Shown piece by piece: positions 31,869 to 32,320 of a stretch of DNA of 64,000 nucleotides (positions are counted from its first letter, which is position 1; each line of letters opens with the position of its first letter). Source of the stretch: Escherichia phage warpig; the sequence record MN850637.1. One strand, given 5' to 3'. The translations under genes were made by a program, and so were the position numbers. The notes under the pieces are model-generated. The model did not search any database. It worked only from the letters and a program-made list of their open reading frames with translations, and was not told the origin of the DNA.

Positions 31869-31959
31869 GTTTTGACAGAAGACCAATTACAGCAAACTTA
31901 ATCTACTCATCTGACACGAAATCGGACAAAGAAGATATTTGGTCTGGTCATTAAGAATT

Positions 31960-32037
31960 GCGGGTATAGAGAAAGGGCGTCTCACATGTCTCATTAGCAT
32001 GGTATCGGCAGGTTCGACTCCTGCACCCGCCTCCAAA
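31960..32037 (+). tRNA. tRNA with CAU anticodon (Met or Ile2), boundaries uncertain
   Basis: anticodon arm CATGT-CTCATTA-GCATG; T-loop GGTTCGACTCC; 3' ...CCA; 5' acceptor pairing imperfect. Confidence 0.4.
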
Positions 32038-32320
32038 TTTACAGAAGACCGTTTACAGCAAAACTTAAACAATCTATTTCTCGGTAAAGAAAAGGCGAAG
32101 GTTCGATTCCTTCACTCGGCAGATGTCGAGTTGGTGTAATGGTAGCACTTAAGATGGTAAACAACGGTCTGGTAATTATCTTTGTAGATAAGTTATTAAG
32201 CTTACCTGTGAGTATGCGACCACAAAGGGTGAAGGGTAAATTCTAGATTTAAACCCAAAAAGGCACATCGCTACAGACCTTAAGCAAGTCTGGGTAGCTT
32301 ATCTACAAAGATAATTTAAT

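What the first reader, a model, noticed from the sequence alone, without database searches (positions are those of the whole stretch)
31869..32320. Orphan tRNA T-arm and repeated, tRNA-free spacers inside the tRNA cluster
A perfect T-arm (GAAGG-TTCGATT-CCTTC, about 32096-32112) has no matching acceptor or anticodon arms nearby, looking like a tRNA remnant or tRNA-like element. Its upstream spacer (...ACAGAAGACCGTTTACAGCAAAACTTAA...) repeats the spacer at 31871-31900. About 200 nt downstream (32114-32320) contains no tRNA but is bracketed by tRNA genes. Similar gaps are at 32600-32800 and 34232-34325 (the latter with nested inverted repeats). These could be small structured RNAs, processing leaders or relics of endonuclease-mediated rearrangement.
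Basis: seen in the sequence. Interest (0 to 1): 0.45.

Follow-up and report, generated by a model that had tools for sequence, protein, structure and literature searches.

The report
Phage Y-RNA-like genes among tRNAs
The "orphan T-arm" and repeated spacers are two unannotated small RNA genes, one a circularly rearranged tRNA mimic, of a family that sits beside a divergent Ro60-like protein gene in many phages and most likely forms Y-RNA-type particles with that protein.

Summary
The window is a Felix O1-like phage. The T-arm (32097-32113) and the repeated spacer are real, but the T-arm is not orphan. It lies in a 137-nt RNA ("Y4", 32039-32175). Y4 has a terminal stem, a UUACAGCAA motif, an anticodon-like hairpin, the T arm, a 7-bp acceptor-like stem closed by a tetraloop, and a D arm. 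This is the arm order of bacterial YrlA Y RNAs.

The spacer at 31873-31950 ("Y1") has the same terminal stem and motif without the tRNA-like core. Relatives carry four such genes. This genome lost two of them, plus tRNA-Asn, Tyr and Asp, by deletion between two identical 28-nt modules.

The gene 500 nt upstream (30126-31541, Pfam DUF2828+DUF7788) models as a Ro60 ring plus vWA domain; its 12 best PDB matches are all Ro60/TROVE.

A covariance model built only from distant metagenomic phages recovers Y4 at 109 bits. An alignment-free scan finds 73 such RNAs in 48 of 75 distant DUF2828 loci, all on the gene's strand. Covariation supports every helix.

The family fails YrlA's binding motif and Rfam threshold, so I call it a new variant of Y RNA. 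Its small members match the design of Dictyostelium Class I RNAs. Protein binding, expression and function are inferred, not shown.

The parts
30126..31541 (+). Gene for a divergent Ro60-like protein, 471 aa (helical ring plus vWA/MIDAS domain); the proposed protein partner of the RNAs.
   Evidence: Pfam DUF2828 (2.8e-28) and DUF7788 (1.7e-43), no TROVE hit. PHROG 850 'RNA-binding protein'. AF2 model pLDDT 90.5. The 12 best Foldseek PDB matches are all Ro60/TROVE over about 530 columns, E 5e-8 to 4e-6, TM 0.5-0.65. MIDAS residues D279, S281, S283, T349 and D381 are invariant in 62 homologues.
31560..31680 (+). Two sigma-70-like promoter sites (31560-31588 and 31651-31680) upstream of tRNA-Pro; likely start of the transcript that carries Y1 and Y4.
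   Evidence: Consensus scan, 10 of 12 matches each. No + strand terminator-like site lies between them and 32555. Function is inferred.
31873..31950 (+). Y1, the small family member. Basal helix UGAC/GUCA, internal loop AGA/G, helix AGACCAA/UUGGUCU, UUACAGCAA motif (31887-31895), variable hairpin. Lies between tRNA-Glu and tRNA-Met.
   Evidence: Fold. R2 51 bits. R3, built without Ounavirinae sequences, 32.8 bits, E 6e-4. Stem covariation among paralogues and relatives. Weak full-length Rfam match to Dicty_Class_I_RNA, 17.5 bits.
32034..32061 (+). 28-nt module CAAATTTACAGAAGACCGTTTACAGCAA, which relatives carry twice (5' ends of Y2 and Y4). Here it is the junction of a ~540-bp deletion that removed the rest of Y2, tRNA-Asn, tRNA-Tyr, tRNA-Asp, Y3 and the start of Y4.
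   Evidence: Comparison with Felix O1 and Alf5. In all 25 best relatives the two halves of window 31985-32115 lie 530-700 nt apart.
32039..32175 (+). Y4, the tRNA-mimic family member (YrlA-like). Basal helix UUAC/GUAA, internal loop AGA/G, helix AGACCGUU/AACGGUCU (32046-32053 with 32163-32170), UUACAGCAA motif (32053-32061), then a permuted tRNA-like core.
   Evidence: The MFE fold gives exactly this structure. R3, built only from distant phages, 108.8 bits, E 8e-21. Covariation: 35 of 38 pairs have double changes, 91.8% of cells paired against 61.8% in shuffles.
32077..32092 (+). V or anticodon-like hairpin of Y4 (UUUCU-CGGUAA-AGAAA).
   Evidence: Present in all relatives. The loop is C-U-NNN-A-A in SUSP1, Sf14 and pEC-M719. 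The stem covaries in distant members.
32097..32113 (+).
   Evidence: GAAGG-UUCGAUU-CCUUC. Helix 99% paired, with 4 of 5 pairs showing compensatory changes across the family.
32114..32131 (+). Closed acceptor-like stem of Y4 (ACUCGGC-AGAU-GUCGAGU).
   Evidence: Sequence varies while pairing is kept: ACCCUUC/GAAGGGU in Moogle, ACACG/CGUGU in SUSP1 and Sf14. 7 of 7 pairs have compensatory changes across the family.
32134..32148 (+). D arm of Y4 (GUGU-AAUGGUA-GCAC), preceded by U-G at the positions of tRNA nucleotides 8 and 9.
   Evidence: Invariant in Ounavirinae apart from one loop base. 96% paired across the family.
32175..32315 (+). Long conserved hairpin between Y4 and tRNA-Lys. It contains an inner mini-hairpin (32270-32298, GCUAC-AGAC-CUUAAGCAA-GUCU-GG-GUAGC) that resembles a degenerate Y module. 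Whether it belongs to the system is uncertain.
   Evidence: MFE -47 kcal/mol, z -5.8. Consensus fold of 8 relatives: 44 pairs, 9 with compensatory changes.

Best explanation
31873-31950 (Y1) and 32039-32175 (Y4) are genes for small non-coding RNAs of a Y-RNA-like family. The family partners a phage-encoded, highly divergent Ro60-like protein, encoded about 500 nt upstream on the same strand.

Every family member is built as follows:
- a terminal stem formed by its 5' and 3' ends: (A)AG-N5 pairing with N5-CU, then an unpaired G. In Felix O1-like phages there is a further 4-bp basal helix below an AGA/G internal loop;
- a conserved UU(A/U)CAGCAA motif immediately after the 5' strand of that stem;
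- a variable body.

In Y4 the body is a tRNA mimic with all four arms in permuted order: anticodon-like or V hairpin, T arm, acceptor stem closed by a loop, D arm. This is the arm order of bacterial YrlA.

Proposed mechanism (inferred):
1. The RNAs are made as part of the polycistronic tRNA transcript.
2. They are released by the tRNA-processing enzymes that cut the flanking tRNAs (RNase P at the 5' ends, 3' trimming).
3. The Ro60-like ring binds the terminal stem and the CAGCAA motif.
4. The variable body tethers a second factor. For Y4 this would be something that recognises tRNA shape, or an exoribonuclease such as PNPase as in the Rsr-Y RNA-PNPase machine. That would redirect RNA decay or quality control during infection.

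Shown here: the structure, the covariation, the strand-specific co-occurrence with the protein gene, and the Ro60 fold of the protein.
Inferred: expression, processing, binding to the protein, and the downstream effector.
For: 1. Anatomy. The MFE fold of 32036-32175 gives the terminal stem plus a multiloop with four hairpins. The arm order V-T-AS-D and the nearly invariant T and D loops fit the published definition of YrlA (PMC4201824 section 6).

2. Covariation.
- Within Ounavirinae, the closed acceptor stem has three sequence versions, all paired.
- The basal helix and the inner helix covary among 37 distinct module sequences: score 0.40 against 0.16 in shuffles and at most 0.12 when slid.
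- Across 31 family members, 35 of 38 pairs show double changes and 91.8% of cells are paired, against 61.8% shuffled and at most 44% slid.
- The 14 distant members alone give 89.8% against 56.6%.

3. Independent recovery. Model R3, built from 14 metagenomic sequences with no Felix O1-like sequence, scores window Y4 at 108.8 bits (E 8e-21) and Y1 at 32.8 bits.

4. Association with the protein gene. An alignment-free scan of 75 loci whose DUF2828 protein is about 38-47% identical found 73 stem+motif+stem elements in 48 loci. All were on the gene's strand, none on the other strand, and 0-1 in shuffles. Many lie within 300 nt of the gene.

5. Protein. The AF2 model (pLDDT 90.5) matches only Ro60/TROVE structures over its full length. 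These include a phage Ro60 that binds Y-like RNAs (9l5y; PMC12135203). The MIDAS residues are invariant.

6. RNA level rather than DNA level. There are G-U pairs in the stems and complete strand bias.

7. Rfam's own YrlA model weakly matches two distant members over its full length, 28.7 and 25.2 bits.
Against: - There are no expression, processing or binding data for any member. The nearest is an untested suggestion for Listeria phage CKA15 (PMC12282133).
- The GNCGAAN0-1G motif that Chen et al. propose as the Rsr-binding site in YrlA is absent.
- Rfam YrlA gives no hit in the window at E<=10. In distant members it stays far below its gathering score of 69 bits.
- The protein has no TROVE Pfam hit. 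Its sequence-profile match to Ro60 is marginal, E 0.56, so homology rests on fold.
- The family alignments used for the covariation counts were fitted to the model, which favours the structure.
- Only 48 of 75 loci scored in the scan.
- The paralogues within one genome are not independent events.
Confidence: 0.72

Rival explanations
1. Y4 is the acceptor piece of a two-piece (circularly permuted) tmRNA. Its coding piece would be the tag-like RNA at 32606-32800, which reads ANDNVFLAVA followed by two stops. ARAGORN effectively reports this for phage Moogle, and two genome announcements repeat it.
For: - ARAGORN calls a permuted tmRNA in Moogle at L003 2985-3733. It starts at that phage's Y4 and carries the tag ANDNVFLAVA**.
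- Genome announcements report ssrA in Moogle and Felix O1 (PMC4319497, PMC4392139).
- The tag frame is conserved, with synonymous and stop-preserving changes.
- Rfam tmRNA aligns the tag region with high posterior probability.
- In Moogle and in two L077 members, the 3' strand of the closed acceptor stem is followed by N-CCA.
Against: - ARAGORN calls no tmRNA in the window or in the Felix O1 segment.
- The alanine determinant G3:U70 is absent from Y4's stem: C3-G70 in the window, A3-U70 in Moogle.
- There is no CCA in the window, Felix O1 or SUSP1 loops.
- Three tRNA genes and a separate promoter lie between Y4 and the tag, so the two parts would be cut apart and transcribed separately.
- Y4-type RNAs occur next to DUF2828 genes in distant phages, with small paralogues that share the stem and motif but have no tRNA-like core. 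A tmRNA piece does not explain that.
- Rfam tmRNA and tmRNA_permuted scores are below gathering: 24 and 30 bits against 47.
Confidence: 0.07
2. The repeated modules and hairpins are only cis-acting processing signals (RNase E, RNase III or RNase P guides) of the polycistronic tRNA precursor. They have no life of their own after cleavage.
For: - They lie between tRNA genes on the same strand, with no promoters or terminators of their own.
- 11 of 24 distant DUF2828 loci examined also carry tRNA genes.
- The long hairpins at 32175-32315 and 33734-33826 sit just before tRNAs and could be RNase III sites.
Against: - Loci with no tRNA gene called in the fetched stretch still carry the elements next to the protein gene, e.g. 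L013, L016, L047 and L069.
- A full tRNA-like core, with T- and D-loop nucleotides conserved across phages whose proteins are about 40% identical, is far more than a cleavage signal needs.
- The conserved single-stranded CAGCAA motif points to recognition by a dedicated factor.
Confidence: 0.1
3. The T-arm region is a decaying tRNA pseudogene, and the repeats are scars of homing-endonuclease or recombination events in a fluid tRNA cluster.
For: - HNH endonuclease genes are scattered through the cluster: 32890-33246 here, and three in the Felix O1 segment examined.
- This genome carries a deletion between two repeat copies.
- Relatives differ by insertions and deletions.
Against: - Every helix is maintained by compensatory changes.
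- The element is found intact in 245 of 258 matching phage records and in distant phages.
- The 'missing' arms are present in permuted order.
Confidence: 0.03
4. The repeats act at the DNA level, as protein-binding, recombination or replication sites, and not as RNA.
For: Direct repeats with an inverted-repeat component (AGACC...GGUCU) did mediate a deletion in this genome.
Against: - 73 of 73 pattern matches are on the gene's strand and none on the other. A DNA palindrome-type site would not care about strand.
- G-U pairs, e.g. AGGCC/GGUCU in Moogle Y1 and U-G in the D stem, become A-C mismatches on the other strand.
- The T loop and D loop have tRNA signatures.
Confidence: 0.03

Closest known systems
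YrlA, the bacterial and phage Y RNA with a tRNA-like domain (Chen et al. 2014, PMC4201824; Rfam RF02553)
   Same: - The 5' and 3' ends pair into a stem that carries the presumed protein-binding site.
- The body is V hairpin, then T arm, then an acceptor-like stem closed by a loop, then D arm.
- The T and D loops are nearly invariant, while the acceptor-like stem varies with compensatory changes.
- It is encoded close to, and on the same strand as, a Ro60-type gene.
- Smaller sibling RNAs lacking the tRNA-like part occur in the same locus, as YrlB does in Salmonella.
   Different: - The partner protein is DUF2828+DUF7788, not a Pfam TROVE protein, and is only 11-17% identical to Ro60 structures.
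- The GNCGAAN0-1G motif is replaced by UU(A/U)CAGCAA placed right after the 5' strand of the stem.
- Rfam YrlA does not reach its threshold.
- The genes are embedded in a phage tRNA cluster in up to four copies.
- The V hairpin has an anticodon-loop-like C-U-NNN-A-A loop.
Thermus phage phiLo Ro60 with Yrl1 and Yrl2 (PMC12135203; PDB 9KOP, 9L5Y)
   Same: - A phage-encoded Ro60-fold protein with two or more Y-like RNA genes next to it.
- 9kop and 9l5y are among the best structural matches of the window protein.
   Different: - phiLo's protein is a recognisable Ro60 homologue.
- Its RNAs carry the CGAA motif in a bulge and were not described as tRNA mimics.
- Binding and PNPase recruitment were shown there; nothing is shown here.
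Class I RNAs of dictyostelid amoebae (Rfam RF01414; Kjellin et al. 2021, PMC7919456)
   Same: - Design: start AAG, a short terminal stem kept by compensatory changes, a conserved motif (CC)UUACAGCAA directly after the 5' strand, a variable remainder, an end CUG(U), and many gene copies.
- The small phage RNAs give full-length matches to RF01414 in several lineages, 15-24 bits.
   Different: - All matches are below the gathering score of 41.5.
- Class I RNAs are eukaryotic, have their own upstream promoter element, are 42-65 nt long, and are reported as unique to Dictyostelia.
- Their known direct binder is the RRM protein Rnp1A.
- Whether dictyostelids have a DUF2828 protein could not be tested here.
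Two-piece (permuted) tmRNA
   Same: T arm followed by the acceptor 3' strand, a short intervening loop, then the acceptor 5' strand. A conserved tmRNA-like tag frame lies about 480 nt downstream. ARAGORN joins the two in Moogle.
   Different: There is no G3:U70 and, in most members, no CCA. Three tRNA genes and a promoter separate the parts. The family is associated with a Ro60-like gene, not with a tag RNA.
Stable small RNAs in the tRNA clusters of T-even and T5 phages (from my own knowledge, not checked here)
   Same: Small non-tRNA RNAs are co-transcribed and co-processed with phage tRNAs.
   Different: I know of no link between those RNAs and a Ro60-like protein or the CAGCAA motif. No sequence comparison was made.

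Membership tests
YrlA (Rfam RF02553; Chen et al. 2014) | Nearly invariant T-arm-like and D-arm-like stem-loops, separated by a variable stem-loop that occupies the place of the acceptor stem. | tested here: met
   Fold. Ounavirinae alignment: T and D essentially invariant (one one-sided change in the T stem), acceptor-like stem 100% paired with 3 compensatory pairs. Family-wide counts.
YrlA (Rfam RF02553; Chen et al. 2014) | A less conserved V stem-loop 5' of the T arm, and 5' and 3' ends paired into a stem. | tested here: met
   V hairpin at 32077-32092. Terminal stem 32046-32053 with 32163-32170, plus the basal helix.
YrlA (Rfam RF02553; Chen et al. 2014) | GNCGAAN0-1G motif near the 5' end (the proposed Rsr-binding site). 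| tested here: not met
   The 5' region reads ACAGAAGACCGUUUACAGCAA. The conserved motif is UU(A/U)CAGCAA in all members.
YrlA (Rfam RF02553; Chen et al. 2014) | Score at or above Rfam's gathering threshold (69 bits). | tested here: not met
   No YrlA hit at E<=10 in window 31860-32325. Distant members score 28.7 and 25.2 bits.
YrlA (Rfam RF02553; Chen et al. 2014) | Encoded adjacent to, and on the same strand as, a Ro60 (TROVE) orthologue. | tested here: inconclusive
   Adjacent and on the same strand as a protein with a Ro60 fold. That protein has no TROVE Pfam hit, and its sequence-profile match to Ro60 is marginal.
Ro60 / TROVE proteins (for the 30126-31541 product) | A ring of helical repeats followed by a vWA domain with a MIDAS motif. 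| tested here: met
   The AF2 model matches Ro60 structures over the full length, TM 0.5-0.65. DxSxS...T...D is invariant.
Ro60 / TROVE proteins (for the 30126-31541 product) | Significant match to Pfam TROVE, or sequence similarity to known Ro60. | tested here: not met
   Pfam gives only DUF2828 and DUF7788. phmmer against PDB finds nothing. The profile against PDB gives Ro60 at E 0.56.
Ro60 / TROVE proteins (for the 30126-31541 product) | Binds Y RNA or misfolded RNA. | not testable with these tools
   Needs pull-down or gel-shift experiments.
tRNA | A contiguous cloverleaf with an open acceptor stem and a free 3' end. | tested here: not met
   ARAGORN makes no call at 32036-32320. Rfam tRNA matches only the T arm, 14.9 bits. 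The acceptor stem is closed by a loop and the arms are permuted.
Two-piece (permuted) tmRNA | Acceptor stem with G3:U70 and a 3' CCA after the acceptor 3' strand. | tested here: not met
   The window has C3-G70 and the loop AGAU. Moogle has A3-U70, although its loop does contain GCCA.
Two-piece (permuted) tmRNA | The coding piece, with resume codon and tag frame, is continuous with the acceptor 5' strand. | tested here: not met
   The tag frame is at 32648-32683, about 480 nt downstream, behind tRNA-Lys, tRNA-Met, tRNA-Ile and a promoter. ARAGORN calls no tmRNA in the window.
Dictyostelid Class I RNA (Rfam RF01414) | A short terminal stem kept by compensatory changes, with the conserved 11-nt motif directly after its 5' strand. 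| tested here: met
   The stem covaries. UUACAGCAA equals 9 of the 11 motif positions of the Rfam consensus CCUUACAGCAA. Definition taken from PMC7919456.
Dictyostelid Class I RNA (Rfam RF01414) | Score at or above Rfam's gathering threshold (41.5 bits). | tested here: not met
   15.3 to 24.3 bits in six elements from four phage lineages.
Dictyostelid Class I RNA (Rfam RF01414) | Eukaryotic gene with a DUSE promoter element; binds Rnp1A. | not testable with these tools
   Does not apply to a phage genome. Whether the two share a protein partner is untested.

The most novel reading that the evidence does not exclude
The stem + UUACAGCAA + stem-CUG RNAs found next to DUF2828 genes in phages, and the Class I RNAs of dictyostelid amoebae, are one RNA family, or two families shaped by the same kind of protein partner.

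On this reading, DUF2828 proteins form a second, unrecognised branch of Ro60-like ring proteins with their own Y RNAs, spread through phages and perhaps eukaryotes. It would give the 20-year-old Class I RNAs a concrete, testable partner and function: Y-RNA-like tethering to a Ro-like ring.

Caveat: that DUF2828 occurs in plants and mimivirus-like sequences comes only from Pfam mentions in papers. I could not check whether dictyostelids have such a protein.
Probability: 0.3. Interest if true: 0.88.

Novelty: new variant of a known kind. Interest (0 to 1): 0.68.

Why it matters
**Annotation.** Felix O1-like phages are classic typing and biocontrol phages, yet these RNA genes are unannotated. Most of the phage records listed show no feature under the Y4 match. 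A few show a spurious ORF, and two show an annotated 'tRNA-Thr' under the match.

**A large untested class of phage RNPs.** If the explanation holds, about 700 sequenced phages that carry a DUF2828 'RNA-binding protein' each encode a Ro-Y-type ribonucleoprotein with its own recognition motif. These include Felix O1, Listeria P100-like, Staphylococcus, Vibrio, Aeromonas and Campylobacter phages and cluster L mycobacteriophages. Such particles could remodel host RNA decay or guard the phage's tRNA supply.

**A search rule.** The simple sequence rule (AG-N5, UUACAGCAA, N5-CUG) makes these RNAs easy to find. It gives clear targets for binding and knockout experiments.

**tmRNA reports.** The result explains ARAGORN's odd 'permuted tmRNA' call in Moogle, and probably the tmRNA reported for Felix O1 (PMC4392139).

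**Dictyostelium.** The match in design to Class I RNAs, if more than coincidence, would link a phage RNP to an unexplained eukaryotic RNA class.

Tried and rejected
- **Rfam on the finding region.** No family reached its threshold except ordinary tRNAs. No YrlA hit in the window.
- **Sequence searches of the protein.** phmmer against PDB and NCBIfam gave nothing useful. The profile against PDB gave only a marginal Ro60 hit. The link to Ro60 needed structure prediction.
- **CTTAA/TTAAG helix closing the multiloop (from the MFE fold).** It is poorly kept in relatives, 79% paired family-wide and 65% in distant members. An alternative, AUCU/AGAU, is equally unproven. I leave this helix open.
- **Model R2 (stem module with an artificial GAAA loop).** It found few distant copies. 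The full model and the plain pattern scan worked better.
- **The 34232-34326 gap.** The hairpin is almost invariant in five relatives, so there is no covariation evidence either way. It carries AGACC three times but lacks the CAGCAA motif, and no Y-module model hit it above the tRNA-level scores seen across the cluster.
- **Minus-strand terminator-like site over the T arm.** Judged to be chance: the count of such sites equals the shuffle expectation.
- **Does any sequenced relative share the deletion junction?** The 25 best all have the two halves separated. The other 223 records were not inspected.
- **Do dictyostelids encode a DUF2828 protein?** No tool here covers eukaryotic proteomes by name. 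Avesson et al. 2011, which lists the other Class I-binding proteins, is not in the library. The 2020 Annual Review on bacterial Ro60 is not held either.
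Full report
**What the window is.** Megablast of 31500-34500 finds 361 phage records. The best is Escherichia phage Alf5 at 97.9%, with Felix O1 at 95.8%. The window is therefore a Felixounavirus genome. ARAGORN finds 21 tRNA genes at 31707-36416, all on the + strand.

**Checking the observation.**
- The T-arm GAAGG-TTCGATT-CCTTC is at 32097-32113. Rfam's tRNA model matches only that piece.
- The spacer repeat is real. CAGAAGACCNNTTACAGCAAA occurs at 31876 and 32042 only, with no match in any of 100 shuffles.
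- The T-arm is not orphan. Directly 3' lies a 7-bp stem closed by a tetraloop (ACUCGGC-AGAU-GUCGAGU, 32114-32131), then U-G and a D arm (GUGU-AAUGGUA-GCAC, 32134-32148).
- Directly 5' lies a hairpin (32077-32092), separated from the T arm by 4 nt.
- The whole is enclosed by AGACCGUU (32046-32053) pairing with AACGGUCU (32163-32170), and by a basal helix UUAC/GUAA below an AGA/G internal loop.
- RNAfold returns exactly this structure as the minimum-energy fold.
- The earlier spacer (31873-31950) has the same basal helix (UGAC/GUCA), internal loop, helix (AGACCAA/UUGGUCU) and UUACAGCAA motif, but only a small hairpin in the middle.

**Comparison with relatives.**
- Felix O1, Alf5, Moogle, SUSP1, Sf14 and others carry four such elements. 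Y1 follows tRNA-Glu, Y2 follows the first tRNA-Met (Moogle's own annotation omits this tRNA but ARAGORN finds it), Y3 follows tRNA-Asp, and Y4 comes directly after Y3. Only Y4 has the tRNA-like core.
- In those genomes the 5' modules of Y2 and Y4 are the same 28 nt (CAAATTTACAGAAGACCGTTTACAGCAA).
- The window goes straight from tRNA-Met through that 28-mer (32034-32061) into the body of Y4. It lacks about 540 bp holding the rest of Y2, tRNA-Asn, tRNA-Tyr, tRNA-Asp and Y3.
- In all 25 best-matching records the two halves of window 31985-32115 lie 530-700 nt apart. The deletion therefore looks specific to this genome and is best explained by recombination between the two repeat copies. Y4 itself is left intact.

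**Covariation within the subfamily.**
- In 11 Y4 sequences the closed acceptor stem has three versions: ACUCGGC/GUCGAGU, ACCCUUC/GAAGGGU and ACACG/CGUGU. It is 100% paired, with three pairs changed on both sides. The T and D arms are essentially invariant: the D stem never varies and the T stem has one one-sided change.
- I trimmed 37 distinct elements to their two ends, joined the ends with an artificial GAAA, and counted pairs. The basal helix (UA/GC/AU types) and two pairs of the inner helix covary with no unpaired cell. The covariation score is 0.40, against 0.16 in shuffles and at most 0.12 when the partner is slid.
- These are four paralogue classes plus a few changes within a class (for example UUAC/GUAA to UUGC/GCAA in Y2 of SUSP1 and two IMG/VR relatives). 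The number of independent events is therefore small.

**The neighbouring protein.**
- ORF 30126-31541 ends 165 nt before the first tRNA. Pfam gives DUF2828 and DUF7788 and no TROVE. PHROGs calls it 'RNA-binding protein'.
- An AlphaFold2 model built from 62 homologues has mean pLDDT 90.5.
- Against the PDB, the 12 best Foldseek matches are all Ro60/TROVE proteins aligned over about 530 columns: Xenopus and human Ro60, Deinococcus Rsr, and Thermus phage phiLo Ro60. E-values are 5e-8 to 4e-6, TM-scores 0.5-0.65, identity 11-17%. After these come only isolated vWA domains.
- The MIDAS residues are invariant in the family.
- Sequence-only comparison is marginal. The protein is a Ro60-like ring by fold, not by recognisable sequence.
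- The family occurs in 709 phage records. Some mycobacteriophage records already call it 'Ro-like RNA binding protein'.

**Published anatomy of YrlA.** Chen et al. 2014 (PMC4201824) define YrlA as follows:
- ends paired into a stem with the Rsr site;
- then a V hairpin, a T-like stem-loop, a variable stem-loop in the place of the acceptor stem, and a D-like stem-loop;
- encoded beside Ro60 on the same strand.

Y4 has this arm order. It differs in lacking the GNCGAAN0-1G motif; the conserved motif is UUACAGCAA.

**Reach beyond close relatives.**
- I fetched 80 IMG/VR loci encoding relatives of the protein. Seventy-five of them (L011-L085) have proteins about 38-47% identical.
- A covariance model of the 11 Ounavirinae Y4 sequences (R1) found full-length matches in 12 of these loci, all on the gene's strand.
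- In these matches the terminal stem has quite different sequences that stay complementary: AGUAUAG/CUAUACU, AGAACCA/UGGUUCU, UGGGUAU/AUACCCA and so on. The UU(A/U)CAGCAA motif and the T and D loops persist.
- On the alignment of 31 matches, 35 of 38 pairs have double changes. 91.8% of cells are paired, against 61.8% in shuffles and at most 44% when slid. The 14 distant sequences alone give 89.8% against 56.6%. These alignments were fitted to the model, which favours the structure, but the margin is large.
- A second model (R3) was built from those 14 distant sequences only. It scores window Y4 at 108.8 bits (E 8e-21, the top hit) and Y1 at 32.8 bits, and finds further loci. Tandem tRNAs score 24-30 bits with R3, so hits in that range are not counted as members unless they also show the motif.
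- An alignment-free scan searched for [N-G-N5][N][WWC(A/C)GCA(A/G)], then 25-190 nt, then a perfect 7-bp complement followed by G. It gives 73 hits in 48 of the 75 loci on the gene's strand, none on the other strand, and 0-1 in shuffles. Many lie within 300 nt of the gene.
- Eleven of 24 distant loci examined also carry tRNA genes. Loci such as L013, L016, L047 and L069 have the RNA and no tRNA gene called in the fetched stretch.

**Relation to Rfam families.**
- Rfam's YrlA model weakly matches two distant tRNA-like members over its full length: 28.7 and 25.2 bits, against a gathering score of 69. It matches nothing in the window.
- The small members repeatedly give full-length matches to Dicty_Class_I_RNA (gathering score 41.5):

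| Element | Bits |
|---|---|
| Window Y1 | 17.5 |
| Felix O1 Y2 | 20.1 |
| Felix O1 Y3 | 15.3 |
| L077 (two elements) | 24.3 and 16 |
| L059 | 21.6 |

- The published definition of Class I RNAs (PMC7919456) is: start AAG, a 6-bp terminal stem kept by compensatory changes, an 11-nt motif directly after the 5' strand, a variable remainder, and end CUGU.
- The phage RNAs follow the same formula: (A)AG-N5-UUACAGCAA ... N5-CUG.
- This may be homology, convergence on a similar protein surface, or chance. I could not test whether dictyostelids have a DUF2828 protein.

**How it most likely works.**
- Shown: two RNA structures supported by covariation; membership of a family tied in position and strand to a Ro60-fold protein gene; strand specificity and G-U pairs that point to RNA rather than DNA.
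- Inferred: the RNAs are transcribed from the promoter-like sites at 31560-31680 as part of the tRNA precursor, and are freed by RNase P and 3' trimming of the flanking tRNAs.
- Inferred: the Ro60-like ring binds the terminal stem and the CAGCAA motif.
- Inferred: the variable body, a tRNA mimic in Y4, brings in a second factor. The model for this is the Rsr-Y RNA-PNPase machine, or phiLo Ro60-Yrl-PNPase (PMC12135203).
- A role in surveillance or protection of the phage's own tRNAs is plausible given the location, but is speculation.

**Rival: two-piece tmRNA.**
- ARAGORN calls a permuted tmRNA in Moogle that starts at its Y4 and ends after a tag, ANDNVFLAVA**. Two genome announcements report ssrA in Moogle and Felix O1.
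- The tag frame is real and conserved (window 32648-32683). Changes are synonymous or keep the stops.
- It sits in a separate RNA behind a strong promoter-like site (32570-32598, 11 of 12 matches). Three tRNA genes lie between it and Y4.
- Y4's stem lacks G3:U70, and in most members it lacks CCA.
- ARAGORN calls nothing in the window or in the Felix O1 segment.
- I read the ARAGORN call as a fusion of two unrelated elements. I note that N-CCA does follow the acceptor 3' strand in Moogle and in two L077 members. This recalls the RNase P cleavage and CCA addition reported for M. smegmatis YrlA.

**The other gaps named in the finding.**
- 32175-32315 is a 141-nt hairpin with a 23-bp outer stem (z -5.8). 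It is conserved, with 9 compensatory pairs in 8 relatives. It contains an inner hairpin that looks like a degenerate Y module.
- 32606-32800 is the tag-bearing RNA described above.
- 34239-34324 is a hairpin that is nearly invariant in five relatives, so covariation says nothing about it.
- None of these three is a further copy of the Y module by the models.

**Verdict.** The 'tRNA-like / small structured RNA' reading is right and the 'remnant' reading is wrong. The elements are best filed as a new variant of Y RNA: YrlA-like in architecture, but failing YrlA's motif and score, and partnered by a Ro60-fold protein of a different Pfam family. Nothing about expression or binding has been shown.

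Noticed in passing
window 32570-32800 (+); tag frame 32648-32683: A strong promoter-like site (TTGACA-17-TATAGT) is followed by a ~200-nt RNA conserved across Felixounavirus, Mooglevirus and Suspvirus. It carries a tmRNA-like tag frame, GCA AAC GAC AAT GTT TTT CTG GCA GTA GCT TGA TAG (ANDNVFLAVA**). Changes in relatives are mostly synonymous or stop-preserving, with one Val-to-Ala change in SUSP1, and a covarying hairpin follows the frame. Rfam tmRNA scores 24 bits (gathering 47). No tRNA-like domain is attached in the usual way. ARAGORN joins this RNA to Y4 as a 'permuted tmRNA' in Moogle.
   Followed up: partly
window 32803-32884 (+): Relatives have an ordinary tRNA-Arg(UCU) here. The window and Felix O1 instead have a tRNA-like RNA not called by ARAGORN (Rfam tRNA 33 bits). 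Its acceptor stem is CGGGGCG/CGCCUCG with G3:U70, A73 and an encoded CCA. It has no D arm, and its 3' end closely resembles tmRNA 3' ends. The anticodon stem differs from Felix O1's by two compensatory double changes (UCUGU/ACAGA against GCGGU/ACCGC).
   Followed up: partly
window 32034-32061, compared with L002 1036-1604: This genome lacks tRNA-Asn, tRNA-Tyr, tRNA-Asp, Y2 and Y3. The cause is a ~540-bp deletion between two identical 28-nt repeat copies. All 25 best relatives keep the segment.
   Followed up: yes
window 31873-31950; L002 1049-1106 and 1503-1570; L077 5937-5991; L059 3908-3944: Small family members repeatedly give full-length but sub-threshold Rfam matches (15-24 bits) to Dictyostelium Class I RNA. 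They share its AAG-stem-UUACAGCAA...stem-CUG design.
   Followed up: partly
window 32175-32315 and 33734-33826 (+): Two long, near-perfect hairpins (z -5.8 and -5.1) each end just before a tRNA gene, with similar 3' arms (...AAAGATAATTTAATGG and ...AAAAGATTTAATGG). They may be RNase III-type processing sites.
   Followed up: partly
window 33385-33467 (+): A tRNA-like fold with a 7-bp acceptor stem (UGGGACG/CGUCCCA), a 9-nt anticodon-type loop (CUUCCAACA) and an atypical T loop, followed by UGCCA. No tool calls it a tRNA.
   Followed up: no
L003 3072-3079; L077 about 5855-5865 and 8550-8560: In Moogle-type Y4 and in two distant members, the loop that closes the acceptor-like stem begins with N-CCA. 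After cleavage in the loop these RNAs could expose a tRNA-like 3' end. Most members lack this.
   Followed up: no
window 34239-34324 (+): A hairpin between tRNA-Thr and tRNA-Val that is almost invariant across genera. It carries AGACC three times but has no CAGCAA motif.
   Followed up: partly
window 32890-33246 (+) and 34500-35057 (+): Two protein genes lie inside the tRNA cluster. One is a weak-scoring HNH endonuclease (Pfam 17.5 bits, below cut-off) directly after the odd tRNA-like RNA. The other is a DUF7338 protein (2e-61).
   Followed up: no
GenBank records under the Y4 match (H59 REP5, H67 REP10; L001 1489-1812): Two records list an annotated 'tRNA-Thr' under the Y4 match (in REP10 alongside tRNA-Tyr and tRNA-Asn). 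If it is placed on Y4, the V-hairpin loop CUGGUAA/CCGGUAA (GGU) of relatives would explain it. Alf5 annotates a minus-strand hypothetical ORF across Y3, Y4 and the hairpin. Both are probably annotation artefacts.
   Followed up: no
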